Shown piece by piece: positions 23,504-56,259 of a stretch of 64,000 nt of DNA; the first letter of the stretch is position 1, and every line of letters begins with the position of its first letter. Source of the stretch: a virus; IMG/VR virus record IMGVR_UViG_3300020473_000024, positions 1 to 64,000 of that record; one strand, written 5' to 3'. The notes below the pieces were generated by a model. The model was not told the DNA's origin and made no database searches. It saw nothing but the letters and a program-made list of their open reading frames with translations. Position numbers and translations under genes: made by a program.

Positions 23504-24353
23504 TTAATGGCACTGCGCCCAGTTGCGCCCCAGCTGGTAGCCAGCGGTGAGGTCAACACGTAAGTTATAGAACTTACCTCCTTCTTCGATAGACTTAACT
23601 GCTAACTCTCCAGCTCTGCTGTAGCCACACCACCAAACTCCGTTGGCGTGTCCGATATCACTAAACACCTTCCCTGTAGATTCCTCCATCTGAGCCTTCC
23701 ACTCCTCAGCTTCTTCCTCAGACTTGAATGACTTAATCTTAACGTTACGGGTGTGCTCTTCCATCTGACTTTCATCATGGTAAAATATGATAGCCTCAGC
23801 TTCAAGGTTTTCATCTCTCACCCAACGATCCCAGTAGACAGCGGCACGTTTCATACAGATAACGCCAGCTGATTGGAATAAAGTATTTACTAGGCTGTGT
23901 CTAGAACGAGCCATAAGCTTTCTTCCATCAACACCCACTATAAACTTCTTATCGTTGTCTGTCCAGTGTTTTTCTAATGCTTTCTTTAAAAGAGCAAGAG
24001 GCTTAGAAGCTTCCCAAAATGCGTTGAATACACGTTGAGCATGATCCAAACTCCATCCCATTTGTTTAGCAATCTTAGGTGGTTGAGCACCATAAGAGGA
24101 GCTATACTTTAATACTTTAGCACTATCCCGATCCACCCCCATTTTTTCAGCATTAACAGAATGTATGTCGTGTGGCTTAGGAGATACCAGTGCTTTGGCA
24201 TACTCCTTCCCGTTGTAAGGAAGACAATAGTGAGCCTCTACACGAGCTTCCAAACCATCAGCATCACAACCTATCTGAACACTACCTTTTGGAACACAGA
24301 ACATGCTCCTCATAGGCTCTCCATACAAACTCGTAACACGGGGGATATTTGCA
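23504..24353 (-). CDS. polA: DNA polymerase family A, exon 2 (polymerase motifs A, B, C)
   Basis: DADGLEAR, R..AK...Y...YG, HDE; frame restored by splicing (V-V-A-N-I-P-R). Confidence 0.9.
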
Positions 24354-24361
24354 CTTTATAT

Positions 24362-25261
24362 TCACTCAAAGTCGCTAGCTTTGAGCCGTTCTCGTAAGCA
24401 AGAATGAAAGTATCTCCGAGTTGTTATCTCTTGTATCTTAAGTTCTTTAGAGATGTCTCCAAGAGATTTACCCTCTAGGAACATCCTTACTATAATACAA
24501 CCCAGTTCATCTTTTGTATAACCCAGATCAGTTGCTACTAGAAACCTTCTATTACCTTTGTCTAGATAACATCCTAACAACCTTCTAGCAGAGAAGTAGC
24601 CAATATTCATGGTCTTAGATATCTTCGTTAAAGTAGCACCTAAGGCATACATCTTTCTAACAACATAAGGATCTGTGTTATTGATCTCTTGATTGAATAG
24701 AGACATGTCTTGTTTGCTTATGTAGACTTTTGCAAAATGCCTGTGTCTACCAAGATCCCTAGATATTTTTGCGAAAGAGTACCCCTTTAGTGACTGCTTG
24801 TAAATAAACTCTGCAAGAAAAGAGGAATCTTTAAACCCTAGCGACTCTGCTGTCCTGTCCCTTTTTGAAGAGGAACTCTTACAGTTGGCGACATCTTTCA
24901 ATGTCTCTCCATACCTGTTAACAACCTTGTCTTGCGCCATTGTGTGCAAAGATTGATTACAGAGATTATAGTAGAGAGGGTTATTTGCGGCATCAACTTG
25001 CTCCAACAACTCCACTTCTTTTTTGGCAACAGCTTCTCTACTACCTTTAAAGAGGACTTCAACAGAGAATCTATCTCCTCTAGAGAAATCTTTAAAATAC
25101 TGGACACTGGCAGAGCTAGACCAATATTCTTTATCCTCTCTGTTACACCAAATAATCTCCTCTCCCTCGATAGAGACAATATCACATTCTTGTTTCATAC
25201 CTATGTAATATTTAGGTTTCGCGTCTTCTCTTTTATTAACTAATCTGTATACAATATTCAT
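24362..25261 (-). CDS. intron-encoded GIY-YIG (Seg-like) homing endonuclease
   Basis: IVY...N.......YYIG, YWSSS, E..L, YYN; C-terminal HTH-like repeats. Confidence 0.8.
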   Translation of the reverse strand: MNIVYRLVNKREDAKPKYYIGMKQECDIVSIEGEEIIWCNREDKEYWSSSASVQYFKDFSRGDRFSVEVLFKGSREAVAKKEVELLEQVDAANNPLYYNLCNQSLHTMAQDKVVNRYGETLKDVANCKSSSSKRDRTAESLGFKDSSFLAEFIYKQSLKGYSFAKISRDLGRHRHFAKVYISKQDMSLFNQEINNTDPYVVRKMYALGATLTKISKTMNIGYFSARRLLGCYLDKGNRRFLVATDLGYTKDELGCIIVRMFLEGKSLGDISKELKIQEITTRRYFHSCLRERLKASDFE

Positions 25262-25340
25262 TCTTGCTCCTAACTGCTTACAGTTTCCTGTAAGAATAGA
25301 CTATATCTTTGGTATATTAATAATAAACCGACTTACTATT

Positions 25341-25369
25341 ATTATACCACAGCCTGTTTCGATTGTCAA
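25341..25369 (-). promoter_or_regulatory. promoter inside the intron core for the homing endonuclease
   Basis: Perfect TTGACA-17-TATAAT with extended TG. Confidence 0.8.
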
Positions 25370-25574
25370 TGTTCTATAAGAACAGGAGCTTACAATCTAC
25401 GCCTTACGGCTAGTCGTTGAACCTTCTCCTATTCGGAGCTTGGCGGCTGATCACCCAATCTTCTACATTTTCAGACATTCACGCCTAGGCTTATTTCATC
25501 CTTACGTTGTAGTTGTAGAAGCTCTAAGGGCTTCCCAGCAATTAAAGCTGTTTTTTACGTGAGGCTAGCAATTA

Positions 25575-27199
25575 ACCACACGGTGTTGGAAACGCGATGT
25601 GTTGCACCCGCATGTATCCGCTGACGTAGGCAATCTACCATCATACTCCAGACGTGGATGGGCTAGGAAGCCTGTTCCATTAGGACTTAGTATGCTATTG
25701 CGTCTATGGCGGTAAGTCAACCAATGAACAATATCCTTGACATAAGCATATCTCTTACCCAACAACTCCAAGTTAGGGCAAAGCTTCTCCTTGTCGTCTC
25801 CATCAGTGTAAATAGGCTGTGTAATAACCTTAAGGGGTCGAGAGAGATCGTGGTTTATCAGCTTATCTCTCATCTCCGCAATAGAGTTGACTTTTAAATG
25901 TTCTAATCGGAAAGGCTCTAGAGGACTATCTTTTGTCTCATCTATGTACCTCTCACAACTCTCTAGGAACTTAACACGGTCTAGTTTACGTTTCTTGCTG
26001 TCAAGAGTCAGGTCTTTATCTTTAAACGCAATAGGATTCCACCCCTGCCCTACAAGGTAAGATTTAATATCCCCTTGGTTAGCCAAGCGCATAGGCTCAG
26101 TCATAGGAGGCATTTTCTTATCCTTAAGATCCTTTAAAGCCTGTTCCATCATCTCAGGGGGTAGAGGTTGCATTTCACCTTTCTCCCTGCTCTTCCTAAT
26201 AAAATCTGGCATGTCCTCTGGGTCAGTGATACCAGCTTGTTCACAGTATCTCTCCCCAGCCTTACTAATCGATCCATCTTGTTTAAAAGCTGTCTTAGGA
26301 GGAGCTTTAAACTTAAGTACCTCGTTGTCCACAGGATACCCCAACTTCTCCAACCACGACCAACCATGACTACTAATCTCCCCATTGTCGGTGAAAGGTT
26401 TAGCAGGATAACTAGGCTGTCTACTAGGAGGTAGTGGTCTAGGAGGTAATTTAGGCTCTACAACAGACTCTAATCGTTCCATTTCAGCATTAAGCCACTC
26501 CAAGTTTTCTTTGGCTAGCTGTTGGTCAAAAAAGAAGCCCTTTTCCTCACTACGTGATACTATCTCAGCAATAGCTTTTTCAACCCAATAGGCTTGATCC
26601 CAGTTCCAATTACCTTTCTCTTGGATGAGGTATTGGTAGACTTTCTCGTTTACTTCCACATCTCGAATACAATATTCGAGCATTTCAGGGTGGTATACAG
26701 CAAACTCAGCACCCTTGGGGTCACTGGGTGACACTAATCCCAACTCTTCGGCTTTAGCTCTCCAGTCAATCTTAGGCAATCCTAAAATCTTACCAAAGTC
26801 GTCTATTGAGTGACCCAACCTATCTGGGTTCAATGTTTTAGACAGCACAAGGGTGTCTTCAATAAAACAAGGCGATCCCTCTATTGTGTCCTCTAATGAC
26901 CAATTATTAGCCTCAGCCTCTTTAGGATCACAGGTATCGGCTACTGTGAAACTAATGCCTAGTAGCTTACTACAAGCTCTTAAGTCATAGTTAATTATGT
27001 TGTGACCTATTAGGACAGAACACTTCTTCAAAAACTTGCTGAACATATTCAAAGGGAACTCACACTCAGGGTGATCCCCGAATGTGAAGATCTCCTTCGT
27101 ATCAATATCTTTAGCAACAATACAGTGTATTTCTGTAATAGGATCTTCAACGTTAAGTAAGCCATTACCTTCTATATCAAATACGGCTCTTCTTCCCAT
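25575..27199 (-). CDS. polA: DNA polymerase family A, exon 1 (3'-5' exonuclease and thumb)
   Basis: FDIE, HNIINYD, YCIRDV, NTSRFQHR; ATG 27199 after AAGGAG; spliced product 824 aa. Confidence 0.9.
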
Positions 27200-27209
27200 C
27201 TCAATCTCC

Positions 27210-28847
27210 TTAAAAATCTGCTTCTGCATTCTCAAGCAAACCTGTTGTATCATTCATCTGGAATATATCAGCTATTCCTAGATAACCCCAAGGTCTGTTT
27301 TTAAGAACACTCCATCTCACTCTACCACGGCTCTTGTCTGGCATGATCTCAGGCTCTAGACCTAGTACAATCCACGATAATTGCTCCAGACCTGAAGCTC
27401 CTTTAAGATCTTCTTTTCTAACATTAACCCAGAAAGGCTCATTCTCCTTACCCTTTGGTGGTCTGAAGTCTTGAACAATATTTCGGTTAAGGTGGCTTAC
27501 AGCTATAATCCCTAGGTCATGTGATGCCACATAAGCCGCAAGCTCTACCATCGTTTTCTCTAGAGCGCTACGCTCATCGTTAGTGCCAAGTCCTGTCACT
27601 AGCATAGAGAGGTGGTCTAGGATTATGAAGTCAACATTATAAAGGTAGTGGAAGTTATTAATCTTCTTCATCAAATCTTCTAGAGGAATGCTTCCAAAAT
27701 GATCCAAGAATACAAACTTATCTTCGTCTCTACACCAATCATAAGCCTCTTTAAGCCGTTCATCATCAGCAAAGCTTTTAGGATCTTTCTTAAAGTGGTT
27801 GTAATTGACTTCTAGGTAACGAGCACCCATCCTCTGTAGTGTTTCGTCAGTCTCTTCCTCTAAGAAAATCATCCCCACCTTATGACCTTGCTCCGCTAAA
27901 TGGTAGGCTATCTCAGCTGTAGTGGTTGACTTGCCAGCACCAGAAGGAGCTGTAATAACTGTCAACTCTCTTACACGGAAGCCGTGGATCTTCTCCATAA
28001 GCCGAGGAAATGTAGGAACATAAACACCCTCTTCTCTTTTCCGTGTAAATGCCTCAAAACCAATATCTGAGGCTGTTACTACCTTATCGGCTTGGTACTT
28101 AACCCAACCAAAAGAAAGCATCTTTGTGAGCTTTTCACTGCCTTCTTCGAGGTAAACATCGTTAGGATCTTTCTGGTTAGATTTAGTCCAATCTAAAACA
28201 ACAACATCACTAGATAGGAGACTTGAGGCAACATTATCAGTACACTCCTTACCTCGGACAATGTGCTTTTTCTTCTCTCGCTCTGTTGCGGAGTCATTAT
28301 CAAAAGCTAGACGAATTTCTCCAAATTTAGATATGAAGTCCCCGTTAGCATGGATAGAATCAACTGCATTAGCCGCCCCACAATTTAATCCAACAACGTA
28401 AGGTCTCATCCCTACATATTTAGAAGTTGAATCAGCCCACTCAGCTAAAGCTTGGTAGGAGATAAGGGTGTCTTCCTCTCCTTCTACAATAATCACATTC
28501 TTCATAGGTCTGTCGTTTGTTTCAGCTAGTTGCTGACCAAACAGCTTACAGTTTACACCCACCTTACCTATAGCTGTGATATAATATCTATCCGATTTCT
28601 CTAGTGTAAGATCTTTTTTCTTCCAACCAGACAGCTTATTCTTCTGATCGTAGTAGGGGAAGTATATTGCCTGTGGTGTCTCTCCATCCTCGGAGGATAC
28701 AGACATTCTTACATTAAATTTGGTCGTTGTTTCTTTTGAAATACCTCGGTGGGTGAGGTCTGCGATAGGTAGTTTAGATACACTTTCTACGGTTTCTTTA
28801 GTTCTTGTCACTTTTACACTGCTTCCTTTATTCTTGAAGTACCCCAT
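27210..28847 (-). CDS. DNA primase-helicase (T7 gp4-like)
   Basis: TOPRIM EGEED, AFDND; SF4 APSGAGKST, ILDHL, LKGA..LEQ, LKNR. Confidence 0.92.
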   Translation of the reverse strand: MGYFKNKGSSVKVTRTKETVESVSKLPIADLTHRGISKETTTKFNVRMSVSSEDGETPQAIYFPYYDQKNKLSGWKKKDLTLEKSDRYYITAIGKVGVNCKLFGQQLAETNDRPMKNVIIVEGEEDTLISYQALAEWADSTSKYVGMRPYVVGLNCGAANAVDSIHANGDFISKFGEIRLAFDNDSATEREKKKHIVRGKECTDNVASSLLSSDVVVLDWTKSNQKDPNDVYLEEGSEKLTKMLSFGWVKYQADKVVTASDIGFEAFTRKREEGVYVPTFPRLMEKIHGFRVRELTVITAPSGAGKSTTTAEIAYHLAEQGHKVGMIFLEEETDETLQRMGARYLEVNYNHFKKDPKSFADDERLKEAYDWCRDEDKFVFLDHFGSIPLEDLMKKINNFHYLYNVDFIILDHLSMLVTGLGTNDERSALEKTMVELAAYVASHDLGIIAVSHLNRNIVQDFRPPKGKENEPFWVNVRKEDLKGASGLEQLSWIVLGLEPEIMPDKSRGRVRWSVLKNRPWGYLGIADIFQMNDTTGLLENAEADF

Positions 28848-43164: not shown

Positions 43165-43421
43165 TGTTTAATTTATTCAAAAGTAAGCCAAATACTAGCC
43201 AAGTAGAACGCAAGTTACAGAGTCAAGAACTCATGCGTAGTAAGCTAGCTATAACACTAATTGAGCTTGAAGCGGTTGCCAGTAATGATCTAATTGATGA
43301 TCTGATGAAGTGTTTAGACATTGTTGGTAATAGCAAGCTGAAACACGGATCTTTTATTTGTGGCGGTTATAATATCGTTGTAAATGAAAATTCAATCAAT
43401 ATCGTTAAAATGACAAATTAG
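43164..43421 (+). CDS. early hypothetical protein
   Basis: TAATG coupling. Confidence 0.55.
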   Translation: MFNLFKSKPNTSQVERKLQSQELMRSKLAITLIELEAVASNDLIDDLMKCLDIVGNSKLKHGSFICGGYNIVVNENSINIVKMTN

Positions 43422-43430
43422 GGTGATACA

Positions 43431-43550
43431 ATGAAAAGAGAAATTTTACACGGTAAAAACTCACGCTTAAGCAAAGCAGAGCGCAAGCGCATCAAACAAC
43501 TACGCCAGCAACGCCAAGCCCCACGGGGTAAACAATGGCAAACTCAATAA
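43431..43550 (+). CDS. small basic early peptide (39 aa, not in ORF track)
   Basis: GGGTGA RBS; MKREILHGKNSRLSKAERKRIKQLR... Confidence 0.6.
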   Translation: MKREILHGKNSRLSKAERKRIKQLRQQRQAPRGKQWQTQ

Positions 43551-43565
43551 TATATGTATATATAT

Positions 43566-43588
43566 AAGCCCCTTAATTGGGGCTTTTT
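43566..43588 (+). terminator. intrinsic terminator
   Basis: AAGCCCC-TTAATT-GGGGCTTTTT. Confidence 0.85.
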
Positions 43589-43890
43589 AGTGCCTACCAG
43601 CTTATATTCCTTTTTAATATAAATACCCCAAAATATAAACTAAAATAGTCTTATACAGGGGTTGACAAATTCAGCATTGAGAGATCTCCCCCTACCCTAT
43701 ACAATGCCCCCACTAAAGATTAAAACCGCTTAGAATGCGTTTGAGAGCGTTTTAGAGCTATATTAGTAAAAGTTATAAAAATAACCGGTTTATTCTTTTT
43801 AATTTTAAAATAATTGCATTATCCCCTTGCATTATTCGATCACCCTACCTATACTTAGCCTACATTCATTAAATAAGTAAGGTAAACATC

Positions 43891-44181
43891 ATGGCTAAAG
43901 CAATACAGGCTCATTTCGGGACAGTTTCTAACGGACTAGGCGTTGAATGGGCTCTACGTGCGGATGGACAATGGTTTTCACGTTATCAAAACAACACACC
44001 GTATGGTGTACAATGGAGCAAATGGGCAAAGGATGATCCAACGTGGGAAACTGGCGGAACTAACGCTTATTCAGGTGAACGGTTTGAATATGACGAGCCT
44101 CGGATTGCTTGCGGCTTTTCTTCACCGTGCGAGCGTATAGACGATGATTTAATCCCGCGTTGGAGATTGCCTAACGATTGA
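43891..44181 (+). CDS. early hypothetical protein
   Basis: Own promoter TTGCAT-17-TATACT; Trp-rich. Confidence 0.65.
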   Translation: MAKAIQAHFGTVSNGLGVEWALRADGQWFSRYQNNTPYGVQWSKWAKDDPTWETGGTNAYSGERFEYDEPRIACGFSSPCERIDDDLIPRWRLPND

Positions 44182-44217
44182 TAACAATCCAACCGATTAG
44201 ACATAACATCAAATCAC

Positions 44218-44240
44218 AGGGGCGCATTAAGCGCCCTTTG
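44218..44240 (+). terminator. intrinsic terminator
   Basis: GGGCGC-ATTAA-GCGCCCTTT. Confidence 0.7.
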
Positions 44241-44533
44241 TCGTTGGTGAAGCGAAAGAAAAACAAAAAGAATAAGCGCAACCAATATCACTCCATGTCT
44301 TTATAGCCTCTCATAGCCCTTCTAAGGGCTTTATTTTTGTGTCCTAGTGCAATCATATAGCCTACTCATTTTACGCCTAGATAATGCGATTCTGTTGATT
44401 AAATAGGCGTAAAATATATATATATACATATGTTATAGGCTTTATGTGAGAGATACTGAGGACTACGGGCGAATGTATGTCGAACAATTCTTTAATATTA
44501 AAATAATTCTAGTAAGTTTAAGATTAAAGAAAG

Positions 44534-44549
44534 TGTTCCACATGGAACA
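44534..44549. other. parS-like palindrome
   Basis: TGTTCCACATGGAACA, 15/16 to the parS variant TGTTCCACGTGGAACA. Confidence 0.6.
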
Positions 44550-44697
44550 TTCTTTTAATATTAAATCAATCAATATATTTAATATTAATCGATAAAATAA
44601 GTTAGCCGATATGACCACCACAAGTGGGAATTTGTGCTAACAGTTGGTTAAATTGACTAATTTAATCAGAGCAAAACAAGCGAATAATTGAGCCTTG

Positions 44698-44725
44698 ATT
44701 GCGTATAATAAGCATTATGTTAAAT
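44698..44725 (+). other. dif-like XerC/XerD recombination site
   Basis: ATTGCGTATAA-TAAGCA-TTATGTTAAAT; 11-6-11 layout with an exact XerD arm. Confidence 0.75.
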
Positions 44726-44814
44726 TTAATATTAAAGCCTTGATATTTTGGAATTATTGAGGTTTGACGCAGGACAGAAGGGGACTGTGTTAAACACCTC
44801 CCACGCCCCTACCT

Positions 44815-44888
44815 AGATATTTATTTCTCAAGGAGGAGATATTTATTTCTCAAGGAGGAGATATTTATTTCTCAAGGAGGAGATATTT
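44815..44888 (+). repeat. 3.4 x 22-bp perfect tandem repeat
   Basis: AGATATTTATTTCTCAAGGAGG at 44815, 44837 and 44859, plus a partial copy at 44881. Confidence 0.95.
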
Positions 44889-45559
44889 TTACAAAGAGAG
44901 GATAAGCTCTAGGAGAGCCTATAACAGCTCGGATATTTTAGGATAGGTGGTAGGAGGATATTTTAATATTAAGCTCTTAGGGAGCTGTACAGAGCATCTG
45001 AGGTGAATATCTTAGGGTATGTGTTGGTTTGTTTGTAGAAGAGGGGAATAAAACAGGAAAAACAGGGATATTCTGTAAACAGAATGAGGGATATTTTGGT
45101 ATGTGATATTTTAGTGGAGCGCCATGTATCATGGCTACTCCAGAGAATATAGAGTCCCTGATATTTCAGTGTTTGTTTTTACTTCTGTTTTCACTGTTAA
45201 GAACAGTGGTTTGTATTGGTATTTCCGATTATAACATTTTATTAACAATTAAAGAAAACACGACACTTACAATTTTTACATGTCTTCATAGATTTACTAT
45301 CTTCTTTTGTTAAAGATTTTATCTTCCCAGAGGGTTTTAACTCCTCTTTTGTTTGTGGTGTAAGACAGCGGTAGCAGATTAACATATCAACTCTCCTCTA
45401 TCAACTCATATACTCTGTCTAGCACTTCCTGATTATCCTCTTGCTCATCCAAAGAAACACCTTCTATCCAGCTCCACTCAATCCCACCTCCCCCAATTTT
45501 AAGGAAGTGGTGTTGTAGGATGTGTTTTAATATATCTGTGTCTGTCATGTTTATTCTCC

Positions 45560-45850
45560 TTAAAACAGTTTAATACTATCAGCCAATCGTTTAAGTTGGT
45601 CTTCCCCTTGTGTATAGAATCTCTGTTTAATCAGATAGCACAACTCAATCTCATCTTCTGGAGATAACCCCTCAAACACCTTCTTTGGATATAAATGTTC
45701 TCCTTTGTTGTCAATGAGGGCAACAATACCGTCAGGGAGGCAAGGATTCTCCAATGAATATCGTTCATAAGTATTATCACGATCTATCGAAGTTAGCTTC
45801 TCTACAATTGTGTCAGGATGATTTATCAGACGTATTAAATGTTCTCTCAT
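45560..45850 (-). CDS. hypothetical protein
   Basis: ORF with RBS. Confidence 0.55.
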   Translation of the reverse strand: MREHLIRLINHPDTIVEKLTSIDRDNTYERYSLENPCLPDGIVALIDNKGEHLYPKKVFEGLSPEDEIELCYLIKQRFYTQGEDQLKRLADSIKLF

Positions 45851-47911: not shown

Positions 47912-48163
47912 TTACCTCTTAGTTCCACATGTATCCGCTAATTTCCTATAGTGTGTTAATAACTCCTCTTCCAACCTTTTCATAGCAACAGCTTTATTTC
48001 TGTGCTGACTACGACTACTATCTTCTTTTACCTCTATCCCTGTCGGTATGTGGATGATATGAACTCCTTTTGCCATGTGAAAACCAAAAGAGCCAGAATA
48101 GAGTGCCCTCCTGTCATAGGAGAATATTCTAATATCATCTATGTTTATGACTGACTCAGACAT
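47912..48163 (-). CDS. peptide chain release factor (RF-1) domain-like protein lacking GGQ
   Basis: V.I.HIPTGI.V.....RSQH.NK..AM..L matches class I RF domain 3. Confidence 0.75.
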   Translation of the reverse strand: MSESVINIDDIRIFSYDRRALYSGSFGFHMAKGVHIIHIPTGIEVKEDSSRSQHRNKAVAMKRLEEELLTHYRKLADTCGTKR

Positions 48164-53756: not shown

Positions 53757-55388
53757 TTACCCCCAAAGACGTTCTCGAATCTCTTGGAAAGATTGTGTGT
53801 TAAAAAGCTCCCCATCTTTAAAGACTGTCTTCAGAAGCCCTTGTTGCTCTTGCTCTCGTGTTTGTTGATCGAAAAGGGCAATATTCCCATTCTCGTCATA
53901 ATCTACACGGAGTAAACCTTTAGCAGACTTTTTAGTACCATCGTCTGTAGCAGGATCTTTAAACAGCTCGTGGGATTGTCCATTCACCTCTGCGTAGGTT
54001 GCCTTTACTGCCATACCAAGAGTATCACGGGTCATGTACTGCATCGTAAAACTACCCACACCAAACACTACATTTGTAGAGGCAAAGCCTTTATCGGCTA
54101 ATCGCTCACAAATCTGCTGGATACGTTCATAGTTCATACTATCCCCGTAGATAAGACCTACACGCTCGTGCAGTACACGATAGCCTTGCTCAGTCTCAGT
54201 ACCACCGAAGATGTCCCACAACACTTCGATTGCACCTTTCACTTCGTGCTCTGCTAACTCTTTTCCAAGAACAGCCTTACCTCTGAAGTTGTTAAGTTCA
54301 AACCACTGTCCGTCTATCTTCACAGCCTCAGGCATCTTAAGAACGTTATTATTGTAGTGATACAAAGCCAAGTCTGCTTCAGTAAATTCCTTGTCACTTG
54401 TTGTGTAGCCAGTAACAATCTTAACAGGATCACCACTATCGGGACGAAATACTGTCTTAGCAATACCCAACTCATTTGGAATACGGTTAAGGATATCCTG
54501 TTTCAATTCAACTACATACTCAGTTAATACCTTCCAAAAATCAAAAGTGTCTGAGATAACTGATACAATACCCGTAGGGTAGTCTTCTGTAATCCACTTA
54601 CGCAACATTTCCAGTTCGCCTCGTACAGCAATACCTGTTGAAGCTAGACTGTGTTCACTCGCTGGAACAGAGGTTGAAATAAATTCATTACTCCAGTGTG
54701 ATTTATAGTAGTTAGCAATAAACTGATTAGCTGGAACTGTGTCACTACCATTACTAGATAGTAAGAATGCACTACTACTCTTAGCGGAATCTTGACGGTT
54801 AGACATCCCACGGAAGCTAAAGTCGTGTAGCTGAAACTCTGTACCGTCAGTAGAGCCTGTTGTGTGAACAGCACACTTATTAACAAGCTTACGGTAGTAC
54901 CAGATTAAGGTTGCTACCGTCTGTGCTTTCCAAGTCTCACAGCTCATAATAGTTTCGACAAAGTTGGTCAACCAAGCGAACTGTGGGATAGTGTTCTGAA
55001 TTGTGTAAGTAGGCACTTTAATAGGTACTACCATACCTTCTGGTAAAGCCTTAACTTCCAAAGGTAGATAACCTAGGCGGTGTAGCTCTCGGAAGTGTTC
55101 TGTCTTCTCGTAAGGCATACCATAAACGTCTTTGTAAAAACCTTGCAAGTATCCTACAGCACTATCTTCAGGCATATTGAAGAAAGTGACTGACATTTCT
55201 GTTAGGAAAAAATCAATAAGCGTGTGTTGCAAGCCGTACACAACGTAGACACCTTCTTTCTCTATCTCTGGGATAGGTAGCCACTTCTCACTACGAGGGG
55301 TCATGTTAGAATAGATCAAGGTTGTTCCATTCTCCATAAAACCTTTATGAGATAGTTTGTAGCTGTCGGTTTGAATCATACCGTTCAT
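53757..55388 (-). CDS. nadV: nicotinamide phosphoribosyltransferase-like (NAMPT/Namat)
   Basis: TDSYKLSH, LHDFSFRG, SVPASEHS, FRPDSGDP, IYGD, GVGS, KKSAKG. Confidence 0.92.
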   Translation of the reverse strand: MNGMIQTDSYKLSHKGFMENGTTLIYSNMTPRSEKWLPIPEIEKEGVYVVYGLQHTLIDFFLTEMSVTFFNMPEDSAVGYLQGFYKDVYGMPYEKTEHFRELHRLGYLPLEVKALPEGMVVPIKVPTYTIQNTIPQFAWLTNFVETIMSCETWKAQTVATLIWYYRKLVNKCAVHTTGSTDGTEFQLHDFSFRGMSNRQDSAKSSSAFLLSSNGSDTVPANQFIANYYKSHWSNEFISTSVPASEHSLASTGIAVRGELEMLRKWITEDYPTGIVSVISDTFDFWKVLTEYVVELKQDILNRIPNELGIAKTVFRPDSGDPVKIVTGYTTSDKEFTEADLALYHYNNNVLKMPEAVKIDGQWFELNNFRGKAVLGKELAEHEVKGAIEVLWDIFGGTETEQGYRVLHERVGLIYGDSMNYERIQQICERLADKGFASTNVVFGVGSFTMQYMTRDTLGMAVKATYAEVNGQSHELFKDPATDDGTKKSAKGLLRVDYDENGNIALFDQQTREQEQQGLLKTVFKDGELFNTQSFQEIRERLWG

Positions 55389-55389
55389 G

Positions 55390-56259
55390 TTATTCTCCTC
55401 CATTAAAATCATCGATATCTTTTAGGCTAATATAATTAGCCACTGTTTGTTCACAATATATATTGTCTACCAAACCTTTGAAGATGTCAAGACCTTTTGA
55501 AAAGATTCCGTGTGTTACGTATAAAGAAACAGAGTTAGCTCCAGCCTCTTTAAGGGCTTCAGCACATTTCAAAAAGGTCATACCTCCATCACAGATATCA
55601 TCGGTAATCAAAATATCTTTCCCCAATACAATCTCAGGACTCTCAAGCTTGAATCCAGTGATCCAGCCCGTAGAAACATCCCGTTCTTTCTCACAAAAAG
55701 TAACAGGCACTTGGAACACAAAACCGTTCTGAAGTGTTTTATCTACAGCTCCTTTATCTGGTGCTACAAACAAACAACTTTCTTTTTTAATCAAGTCAGA
55801 AAGACTTTCATTTCTACGGCAAGTATTAAGTAGACAGTCATATTGGCTAATCTCCTCAATCATATTCCTGACCATCACATCTTCTTTAACCACATCGCTA
55901 TGAAGATCTTTGCACAGTATTTTATCAAAACTCGTTGTCCAAAGACACTGAATAAACACTTGTAAAGGGGCTACCATCCCTTCTTCAAAAGGTCGATCTG
56001 CCCTAGCATGAGGAAAGTAAGGTAGGTTAAGCTTTCGCTCCACAGTGGAAGATATATTAGCCTTTACAAGAATTTCATCTACCACTTCGATTATATTGGA
56101 GTAGCTTGCTACTGGTGTATCTGGGGAGATGGTGAGGCAAACATAATTCTCCAGATTTTCTAAAGCTTCCTTATCGATCTGGATATTAAAACCACCGTCA
56201 CTGAACTCTATAAATTTAGTGGAGATTTCTTTATTATCCCCTATAACCTGAATAGTCAT
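55390..56259 (-). CDS. prs: ribose-phosphate pyrophosphokinase-like (Prs/Adps)
   Basis: FSDG, PYFPHARADR, DLHS, APDKGA, DDICDGGMTF, VTHGIFS. Confidence 0.9.
   Translation of the reverse strand: MTIQVIGDNKEISTKFIEFSDGGFNIQIDKEALENLENYVCLTISPDTPVASYSNIIEVVDEILVKANISSTVERKLNLPYFPHARADRPFEEGMVAPLQVFIQCLWTTSFDKILCKDLHSDVVKEDVMVRNMIEEISQYDCLLNTCRRNESLSDLIKKESCLFVAPDKGAVDKTLQNGFVFQVPVTFCEKERDVSTGWITGFKLESPEIVLGKDILITDDICDGGMTFLKCAEALKEAGANSVSLYVTHGIFSKGLDIFKGLVDNIYCEQTVANYISLKDIDDFNGGE

What the first reader, a model, noticed from the sequence alone, without database searches (positions are those of the whole stretch)
44698..44725. dif-like XerCD site without an integrase
Seen: ATTGCGTATAA-TAAGCA-TTATGTTAAAT. 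Established: E. coli dif is GGTGCGCATAA-TGTATA-TTATGTTAAAT. The XerD arm is identical, the XerC arm matches 8/11, and the spacer length is right but its sequence differs. Inference: more like a plasmid dimer-resolution site than an attP matched to an E. coli-type dif; it could resolve circular multimers or support a carrier state.
Basis: partly seen in the sequence, partly recalled or inferred. Interest (0 to 1): 0.78.

Follow-up and report, generated by a model that had tools for sequence, protein, structure and literature searches.

The report
Host-type dif site in marine myovirus
An 85-kb marine tailed phage with no recombinase gene of its own carries one perfect binding site for the bacterial chromosome-untangling enzymes XerC and XerD, so it may borrow them to sort out its own circular DNA, though this is not proven.

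Summary
Window 44698-44725 reads ATTGCGTATAA-TAAGCA-TTATGTTAAAT and is far beyond chance. Both 11-bp arms are identical to the chromosomal dif of Idiomarina and many other, mostly marine, Gammaproteobacteria. The 6-bp spacer matched none of the 122 genome sites with these arms that the scan returned.

The carrier is a complete 85-kb, virulent-looking marine myovirus. I found no tyrosine or serine recombinase, ParA/ParB, repressor, plasmid Rep or XafT-like factor. The site is single-copy. It lies in the genome's largest non-coding stretch (44182-45130), a convergent, terminator-bounded, repeat-rich island.

One related strain keeps it intact, which is weak evidence of constraint. Sixteen distant relatives lack it, so it is a lineage-specific acquisition. 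No integrated form was found.

Perfect arms with a non-dif spacer are typical of Xer sites on mobile elements. Best guess (about 0.37): host XerCD recombines two phage copies, resolving or unlinking circular phage DNA. Rivals are dif-directed integration (0.12) and a passenger site (0.3).

IMG/VR holds other integrase-less tailed-phage records with such sites, including a ParA-bearing podovirus-like circle. This scan noted similar sites before on other phage DNA. Verdict: new variant of a known kind, function unproven.

The parts
44698..44708 (+). XerC-binding arm ATTGCGTATAA
   Evidence: It is 11/11 identical to the XerC arm of Idiomarina loihiensis dif (PMC2731167) and to 122 genome loci. 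It is 8/11 to E. coli dif.
44709..44714 (+). 6-bp central region (spacer) TAAGCA
   Evidence: It shares 2 of 6 positions with the canonical TGTATA. It occurs in 0 of 122 genome sites with the same arms. The same spacer with the XerD arm occurs at 23 unrelated metagenome loci, some beside inovirus genes.
44715..44725 (+). XerD-binding arm TTATGTTAAAT
   Evidence: It is 11/11 identical to the E. coli K12 and Idiomarina dif. It is the only exact copy in the 85-kb record.
44182..45130 (.). Largest non-coding stretch of the genome, where + strand genes (34.3-44.2 kb) and - strand genes (45.1-66.3 kb) converge; GC 0.35 against 0.40 genome-wide
   Evidence: ORF maps, gap list, GC. No Rfam family reaches threshold.
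44220..44330 (+). Two terminator-like hairpins (44220-44236, 44315-44330) ending the + strand gene block
   Evidence: 9 terminator-like sites in 43400-45600 against 1.5 expected.
44532..44551 (.). Palindrome AGTGTTCCACATGGAACATT, terminator-like on both strands; a second X3 variant diverges to the left of 44534
   Evidence: loose end at 44534 in run X3.
44492..44972 (.). Five copies of the 10-bp palindrome TTAATATTAA (starts 44492, 44555, 44579, 44726, 44963); the fourth abuts the XerD arm
   Evidence: 9 copies in 85 kb, 5 of them here. Also.
44683..44768 (+). Three copies of a 17-nt direct repeat (AATAATTGAGCCTTGAT type) at 44683, 44728 and 44752 that bracket the site
   Evidence: family D2. 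AGCCTTGAT occurs only at 44691 and 44736 in the genome.
44742..45166 (+). Array of GATATTT-core repeats, all in one orientation, including a 3 x 22-bp tandem at 44815-44888
   Evidence: 10 of the genome's 23 + strand copies lie here, and 0 of 14 - strand copies. family D1. The tandem part is replaced in the X3 strain.
44902..44922 (-). Terminator-like hairpin facing the - strand gene block

Best explanation
The 28 bp are a genuine dif-family recombination site of the mobile-element type: perfect XerC and XerD arms with a private 6-bp spacer. The phage encodes no recombinase, so the host's XerC and XerD would bind the two arms. When two phage copies are joined head to tail (a circular dimer, catenane or multimer), two identical sites would synapse and exchange strands across the identical spacers, giving unlinked monomer circles. 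The spacer differs from chromosomal dif, which keeps the phage site from recombining efficiently with the host chromosome. This would serve circular replicative DNA early in infection, or a plasmid-like carrier state. Shown: the sequence, its uniqueness, its identity to natural dif arms, the lack of a phage recombinase, and the setting in a non-coding, terminator-bounded island. Inferred: binding, recombination, how XerCD is activated (FtsK or accessory factors), and any benefit to the phage.
For: - Arms: both are 22/22 identical to natural dif sites. In 5 of 5 genomes with these arms the generic dif pattern occurs exactly once, and at 50.0% of the one complete chromosome, so these arms are real XerCD targets in plausible hosts.
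- Chance is excluded.
- If the site were a drifting copy of a TGTATA dif, the chance that all 4 changes fell in the spacer is 7e-4.
- Among sites with these arms, contigs of at least 200 kb carry TGTATA or TATATA in 22 of 24 cases. Other spacers sit mainly on plasmids and small contigs. The phage site therefore has the mobile-element signature.
- The site is single-copy, as expected for a resolution site or an attP.
- The phage has no recombinase.
- It lies in a transcriptionally terminated, repeat-rich non-coding island.
- It is intact in a diverged strain from run X3.
- Database analogues: the dif-like pattern gives at least 119 viral contigs against 1 for the reversed control. Three of 4 complete tailed-phage records with such a site lack PF00589. 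One is a 38.95-kb circular podovirus-like record with ParA and Ant, the same arms and another private spacer.
- Of the 25 listed weak plasmid matches to the region, 18 fall on the site itself.
Against: - The phage looks virulent. I found no ParA/ParB, plasmid Rep, repressor or XafT-like factor, and a lytic phage that packages from concatemers has no obvious need to make monomers.
- Sixteen distant relatives (MCP 44-59% identical, 8 complete) lack any such site beyond chance level, so it is not needed by the family.
- Conservation in the X3 strain is weak evidence. The flanking 254 nt differ at only 3.5%, so 28 nt stay unchanged by chance with P = 0.36.
- No cer/psi-like accessory element could be recognised.
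- The host is unknown.
- Nothing here shows binding or recombination.
Confidence: 0.37

Rival explanations
1. IMEX-type attachment site. The phage genome circularises and host XerCD integrates it at the chromosomal dif, giving lysogeny without an integrase, as in VGJphi-type filamentous phages, but here for an 85-kb tailed phage.
For: The site is dif-like with bona fide arms, the phage has no integrase, and the arms equal the chromosomal dif of marine Gammaproteobacteria. A review (PMC4246890, passages) states that integration specificity depends on the bases next to the XerC arm. The phage shares T with TGTATA, and TA with the TATATA spacers found at 10 of 122 sites. The same spacer with the XerD arm lies beside Zot and inovirus Rep genes in metagenome contigs.
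Against: - Only 2 of 6 spacer positions match TGTATA.
- No genome among 401 of the Idiomarina order has a site within 3 mismatches of the phage 28-mer.
- None of the 23 metagenome loci with the 21-mer carries the phage's right-hand flank.
- No joint or loose end at the site appears among those listed for 4 runs (contigs only, 72 loose ends not shown).
- The 120 listed capsid homologues sit on contigs of at most 90.9 kb, none chromosomal.
- Only 1 of 151 genomes of the Glaciecola family has even a 31% capsid match.
- No repressor or XafT-like factor was found, and the gene content is that of a virulent phage.
Confidence: 0.12
2. Passenger. The site was picked up recently from a plasmid, an IMEX or another phage by recombination. 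It may still bind XerCD, but it does nothing for this phage.
For: It is absent from 16 distant relatives. It lies in a mosaic, fast-changing non-coding region: 8.8% divergence and a replaced tandem array in the X3 strain, and a second variant that breaks at 44534. Conservation of the 28 nt is not significant at the local rate. No accessory genes were found.
Against: Both arms are still perfect in two strains that differ at 38 positions within 433 nt around the site. No donor-like flank was found in plasmids, phages, viral or metagenome contigs. The site sits among ordered repeats rather than in a recognisable insertion.
Confidence: 0.3
3. Not a Xer site in practice. The sequence is part of a phage origin, packaging or regulatory region and is bound by a phage protein, and its likeness to dif is incidental.
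For: The region is packed with other repeats: 5 palindromes, about 10 one-way GATATTT repeats and a 17-nt repeat bracketing the site. This looks like an origin or another cis-acting region.
Against: A 22/22 identity to a natural dif arm pair at the right spacing is expected about 1e-7 times per genome. None of the other repeats resembles the arms.
Confidence: 0.1

Closest known systems
Chromosomal dif of Gammaproteobacteria (XerC/XerD/FtsK chromosome dimer resolution), e.g. Idiomarina loihiensis dif as listed in PMC2731167
   Same: Both 11-bp arms are identical and the spacer is 6 bp. There is one copy per replicon. The site lies where gene blocks converge.
   Different: The spacer is TAAGCA, not TGTATA. 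The replicon is an 85-kb phage genome, not a chromosome. Only 3 KOPS-type motifs occur in the genome, too few to show polarity.
Plasmid multimer-resolution sites cer (ColE1) and psi (pSC101), and Acinetobacter plasmid pdif sites (names and properties recalled; pdif-like sites seen)
   Same: A XerC arm, a private spacer and a XerD arm sit on a mobile replicon that relies on host XerCD. The spacer is unrelated to chromosomal dif.
   Different: No about 180-bp accessory region with ArgR/ArcA and PepA sites could be recognised (chance level). No plasmid maintenance genes were found. There is a single site, not the paired inverted sites that flank pdif modules.
[quoted passage not shown]
   Same: A dif-like site on a phage that lacks an integrase. 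Both arms are bona fide, as in the VGJphi class.
   Different: The carrier is a large tailed, virulent-looking phage. No integrated copy, repressor or XafT was found. Only 1-2 bases next to the XerC arm match known host spacers.
IMG/VR record G430: a 38.95-kb circular podovirus-like genome with ParA, Ant and no PF00589
   Same: A tailed-phage genome without an integrase that carries the same arm pair with another non-dif spacer (TATCCA).
   Different: G430 has a partition gene 2.7 kb from the site and an anti-repressor, so a plasmid-prophage life is plausible. The window's phage has neither. The two share no genes detected in the 10-kb locus around the G430 site.

Membership tests
dif-family Xer core site (XerC arm - 6 to 8 bp - XerD arm) | 11-bp XerD arm matching the proteobacterial consensus | tested here: met
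   11/11 with the E. coli K12 and Idiomarina dif.
dif-family Xer core site (XerC arm - 6 to 8 bp - XerD arm) | 11-bp XerC arm | tested here: met
   11/11 with Idiomarina loihiensis dif and 122 genome loci; 8/11 with E. coli.
dif-family Xer core site (XerC arm - 6 to 8 bp - XerD arm) | Central region of 6-8 bp | tested here: met
   6 bp.
dif-family Xer core site (XerC arm - 6 to 8 bp - XerD arm) | Bound and cleaved by XerC and XerD | not testable with these tools
   Needs EMSA and cleavage assays.
Chromosomal dif | Lies at the replication terminus of a bacterial chromosome and has the lineage's canonical spacer | tested here: not met
   The replicon is a phage record. The spacer is absent from 122 sites with the same arms and from 401 genomes at up to 3 mismatches.
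Plasmid resolution site of cer/psi type | Accessory sequences beside the XerC arm that bind ArgR or ArcA plus PepA | tested here: inconclusive
   One ARG-box-like match lies at 44555-44568, but such matches are at chance level (9 found, 8.09 expected). The consensus was recalled and the host's factors are unknown.
Plasmid resolution site of cer/psi type | Carried by a stably maintained circular replicon (replication and partition functions) | tested here: not met
   No ParA/ParB or plasmid Rep in 115 Pfam-scanned and 58 PHROG-scanned ORFs.
IMEX (integrative mobile element exploiting Xer) | dif-like attP and no recombinase of its own | tested here: met
IMEX (integrative mobile element exploiting Xer) | Found integrated at a host dif, flanked by hybrid sites | tested here: not met
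   Not found in those searched.
IMEX (integrative mobile element exploiting Xer) | Spacer bases next to the exchanging arm match the host dif | tested here: inconclusive
   One base is shared with TGTATA and two with TATATA. The host is unknown.
pdif module (Acinetobacter type) | Two sites in inverted order flanking a gene module | tested here: not met
   There is a single site; the next best candidate has 5 mismatches.

The most novel reading that the evidence does not exclude
A large, virulent-looking tailed marine phage has captured a host-type Xer site and uses the host's XerCD, with no recombinase of its own, either to persist as a resolvable circular episome (a carrier state without partition genes) or to enter the host dif as an 85-kb tailed IMEX. 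Together with the other integrase-less tailed-phage records that carry such sites, this would make Xer hijacking a general strategy of tailed phages, not only of filamentous and tailless ones.
Probability: 0.15. Interest if true: 0.85.

Novelty: new variant of a known kind. Interest (0 to 1): 0.55.

Why it matters
In the papers I could search, Xer hijacking is described for filamentous phages, tailless double jelly-roll phages, genomic islands and plasmids. In those texts tailed phages appear as integrase-encoding. A working Xer site on a virulent-type myovirus would mean such phages have a circular, host-managed DNA stage, such as a carrier state or pseudolysogeny, which matters for marine phage ecology. 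It would also give a sequence-based clue to the host: bacteria whose dif carries these arms. Finally, it would add a cheap marker, perfect arms with a private spacer, for finding episomal or Xer-dependent tailed phages in metagenomes.

Tried and rejected
- **10-kb terminal repeat, as in T5.** I tested whether the + strand block 34-44 kb is such a repeat with the site at its inner end. Contig depths are 20.8 left and 21.7 right of the region in X1, and one 39.9-kb contig runs from upstream to 44844. There is no sign of double depth. Contigs cannot show ends, so the physical termini stay unknown.
- **Assembly chimera.** Rejected: contigs of three runs cover or bridge the site.
- **Conservation in relatives.**
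  - Peptide-seeded searches with the neighbouring 96-aa ORF and the helicase found no relatives in IMG/VR.
  - TerL relatives are fragments, 4-45% complete, that do not reach the region.
  - Closer relatives (MCP 68-93% identical, contigs of 72-87 kb) exist only in collections whose DNA I could not fetch.
- **Donor of the flanks.** No match for 44300-45130 in the phage collection. Plasmids gave only weak hits on the core site.
- **ARG-box scan for a cer-like accessory site.** Chance level.
- **KOPS polarity.** Only 3 motifs in 85 kb, which is uninformative.
- **XafT-like factor (DUF3653).** None in six frames. The control rang in only 4 of 14 genomes, so this is a weak test.
- **Known RNA in the region.** None reaches threshold.
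- **Second dif-like site or pdif-type module.** None.
- **CTXphi-like folded attP.** The inverted repeat I1 (44554-44585 with 44705-44736, 75% complementary) is carried mostly by the TTAATATTAA palindromes, and the phage is double-stranded. Dropped.
- **Runs X3 and X4.** They hold only small shares of the stretch, so I name no habitat beyond the label 'marine metagenome'.
- **Miscalls.** One search was a mistaken call (protein too short). Searches were format errors that I corrected.

Full report
**Observation.** Window 44698-44725 (+) reads ATTGCGTATAA-TAAGCA-TTATGTTAAAT, exactly as reported.
So the XerD arm is 11/11, the XerC arm 8/11, and the spacer has the right length but another sequence.
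- The same table lists the dif of Idiomarina loihiensis. Both of its arms are identical to the phage site, with spacer TGTATA.
- Chance is excluded:
  - No other match within 3 mismatches occurs in the window, and none in 100 shuffles.
  - In the whole 85-kb record the next best arm pair has 5 mismatches, which is shuffle level (1.15). None of 20 block shuffles came within 3 mismatches.
  - Base composition predicts 1.1e-7 exact arm pairs per genome.

**The carrier.** The window is bases 1-64000 of an 85,011-bp IMG/VR virus record that CheckV rates 99% complete.
- The record is cut inside the tail and baseplate module, so the map is circular or permuted.
- It is a myovirus. It has a tail sheath, tape measure, baseplate, TerL, portal and an HK97-type capsid.
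- It also has a DNA polymerase I split by a homing endonuclease, a primase-helicase, RNR, ThyA, a DNA ligase, NAMPT with PRPP kinase, PNK with an RNA ligase, PhoH and five tRNAs.
- The nearest cultured phages are only 42% (ligase) and 51% (TerL) identical. They infect Aeromonas, Vibrio, Klebsiella and relatives.
- The Dam methylase gene resembles those of Vibrio and Shewanella phages.
- The runs that hold the sequence are labelled marine metagenomes. A marine gammaproteobacterial host is therefore likely, but this is inferred.
- No tyrosine recombinase exists in six frames at E<=1, with 14 of 14 controls ringing.
- Pfam on 115 ORFs and PHROGs on 58 ORFs show no serine recombinase, ParA/ParB, plasmid Rep or CI-type repressor.
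- No DUF3653 (XafT) was found.

**Setting of the site.**
- The site lies in the genome's largest non-coding stretch, 44182-45130. There a + strand gene block (34.3-44.2 kb) meets a - strand block (45.1-66.3 kb).
- Terminator-like hairpins are enriched, 9 against 1.5 expected. They bracket the site from both sides at 44220, 44315, 44532 (both strands) and 44902 (-).
- The island holds 5 of the genome's 9 TTAATATTAA palindromes, one abutting the XerD arm.
- A 17-nt repeat occurs in three copies around the site.
- Ten one-way GATATTT repeats are present, including a 3 x 22-bp tandem.
- This looks like a cis-acting region (an origin or similar), but I could not assign it.
- The site is single-copy.

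**Are the arms real Xer targets?**
They include Idiomarina, Pseudidiomarina, Glaciecola, Marinobacter, Nitrosomonas, many gammaproteobacterial MAGs, and Acinetobacter plasmid-like contigs.
- The spacer is TGTATA in 57 of 122 and TATATA in 10. It is TAAGCA in none.
- Of the 24 loci on contigs of at least 200 kb (among the 80 rows that show lengths), 20 have TGTATA and 2 have TATATA. The other two are a Pantoea plasmid and an Acinetobacter supercontig.
- In 5 of 5 such genomes a generic dif pattern occurs exactly once, with none for the reversed control. In the one complete chromosome it sits at 50.0% of its length.
- So the arms are those of working chromosomal dif sites, and non-canonical spacers mark plasmid or mobile sites.

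**The spacer.**
- The exact 28-mer was not found in IMG/VR or in the JGI metagenome contigs. The window's own record may be hidden from these searches.
- No site within 3 mismatches occurs in 401 genomes of the Idiomarina order.
- A 21-mer (ATAA + spacer + XerD arm) hit 23 metagenome loci of GC 33-67% with varied outer XerC arms.
- I scanned 59 of their 65 ORFs with Pfam, leaving out 6 from L142, which duplicates L137. The neighbours include Zot and an inovirus Rep, ArdA, and the same MazG context in two high-GC contigs.
- None of these loci is related to this phage, and none carries its right-hand flank.
- If the site had drifted from a TGTATA dif, all 4 changes falling in the spacer has P = 7e-4. 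So either the arms are under selection or the site came from a mobile element.

**Relatives.**
- Run X3 holds a diverged strain. One 1039-nt contig covers 44212-44844 and 44913-45116, with 47 + 5 differences and 4 gaps, and its tandem array is replaced.
- The listed differences run from 44312 to 44679 and resume at 44737. So 44680-44736, which contains the whole site, is unchanged.
- This is weak evidence. Right of 44491 the local divergence is only 3.5%, so 28 nt stay unchanged by chance with P = 0.36. At the region-wide 8.8% the figure is P = 0.08.
- Capsid homologues: 395 proteins at E<=1e-20. The 120 listed lie on contigs of at most 90.9 kb, many of 72-87 kb. This fits a family of free phage genomes of about 85 kb.
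- I could reach only distant members. From the best 80 of 291 IMG/VR relatives I searched 16 records (MCP 44-59% identical, 8 complete). One gave a 2-mismatch hit with a damaged XerD arm, which is about chance level.
- TerL relatives of 62-77% identity are fragments that do not reach the region.
- The site is therefore a lineage-specific acquisition and not a family trait.

**Integration?**
- None of the 23 metagenome 21-mer loci is a hybrid junction.
- No joint or loose end at the site appears among those listed for four runs. These are contigs only, and 72 loose ends were not shown.
- No chromosomal capsid relatives appeared. Only 1 of 151 genomes of the Glaciecola family has a match, at 31% identity.
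- The review PMC4246890 (passages) states that ligation needs base pairing at the exchange point. It also states that CTXphi specificity is set by the bases next to the XerC arm.
- The phage shares one such base with TGTATA and two with TATATA. Integration is disfavoured but not excluded.

**Wider context.**
These carry 38 different spacers.
- Many are small high-GC contigs, but several carry tailed-phage packaging genes within 5 kb (I scanned 25 and 47 chosen ORFs).
- Of five such records, four of them at least 90% complete, only one has PF00589.
- G430 is a 38.95-kb circular podovirus-like genome with ParA and Ant and no integrase. It has the same arms with spacer TATCCA.
- Earlier notes of this scan report dif-like sites in other tailed phages: e1-5932390, e1-6311789 and e1-1398481. 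They are leads, not evidence, but they agree with what I saw in IMG/VR.
- Three literature searches found no paper on a dif-like site in a virulent tailed phage. PMC12715192 (passages) treats IMEX in inoviruses and DJR phages, and treats tailed phages as Int-encoding. Supplements were not read.

**Verdict.** This is a real dif-family core site of the mobile-element type on a virulent-looking marine myovirus. Its function is unproven.
- Most likely (0.37): host XerCD recombines two phage copies and so resolves or unlinks circular phage DNA.
- Integration at dif: 0.12.
- Passenger site: 0.30.
- Unrelated cis element: 0.10.

Noticed in passing
window 43695-43767 (core 43721-43760): A non-coding element downstream of a promoter-like site (TTGAGA-17-TACAAT, 10 of 12 consensus positions). 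It is 40/40 identical to Salmonella phage BD13 and 86-96% identical over 50-72 nt to dozens of T5-like phages. In those phages it lies in the terminal-repeat region, which one record labels as similar to the T5 injection stop signal. The downstream genes are not homologous. It forms a modest hairpin (z = -2.1) and matches no Rfam family.
   Followed up: partly
window 23504-27253: The DNA polymerase I gene is in two pieces (25565-27253 and 23504-24328), separated by a homing-endonuclease-like ORF (24362-25261).
   Followed up: no
window 44815-44888: A 3 x 22-bp perfect tandem repeat with a Shine-Dalgarno-like AAGGAGGA in each unit. Assemblers break here. In the X3 strain, 68 nt are replaced by 23 other letters.
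   Followed up: partly
window 44534: A second variant in run X3 matches only from 44534 rightwards. The palindromic bidirectional terminator therefore looks like a mosaic breakpoint between strains.
   Followed up: no
IMG/VR records G426 (70.7 kb), G428 (34.3 kb), G430 (38.95 kb); loci L177, L154, L202: These are complete tailed-phage records without PF00589 that carry dif-like sites with private spacers. In L177, L154, L171 and L196 the site lies within about 0-3 kb of terminase genes. In L177 it falls inside an ORF that matches a virion structural protein family.
   Followed up: partly
metagenome loci L136 and L138: The same spacer and XerD arm (ATAA-TAAGCA-TTATGTTAAAT) lie next to a Zot-family ORF and next to an inovirus Rep ORF in unrelated contigs, as expected for integrated filamentous phages.
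   Followed up: partly
window 47912-48163: A small ORF of 83 aa has an RF-1 domain (release-factor or ArfB-like peptidyl-tRNA hydrolase). It sits in a block that also holds PNK, an RNA ligase, an RlaP-like nucleotidyltransferase and 5 tRNAs, which suggests a translation or tRNA repair toolkit.
   Followed up: no
window 53757-56259: NAMPT and ribose-phosphate pyrophosphokinase genes lie side by side, a phage NAD salvage module.
   Followed up: no
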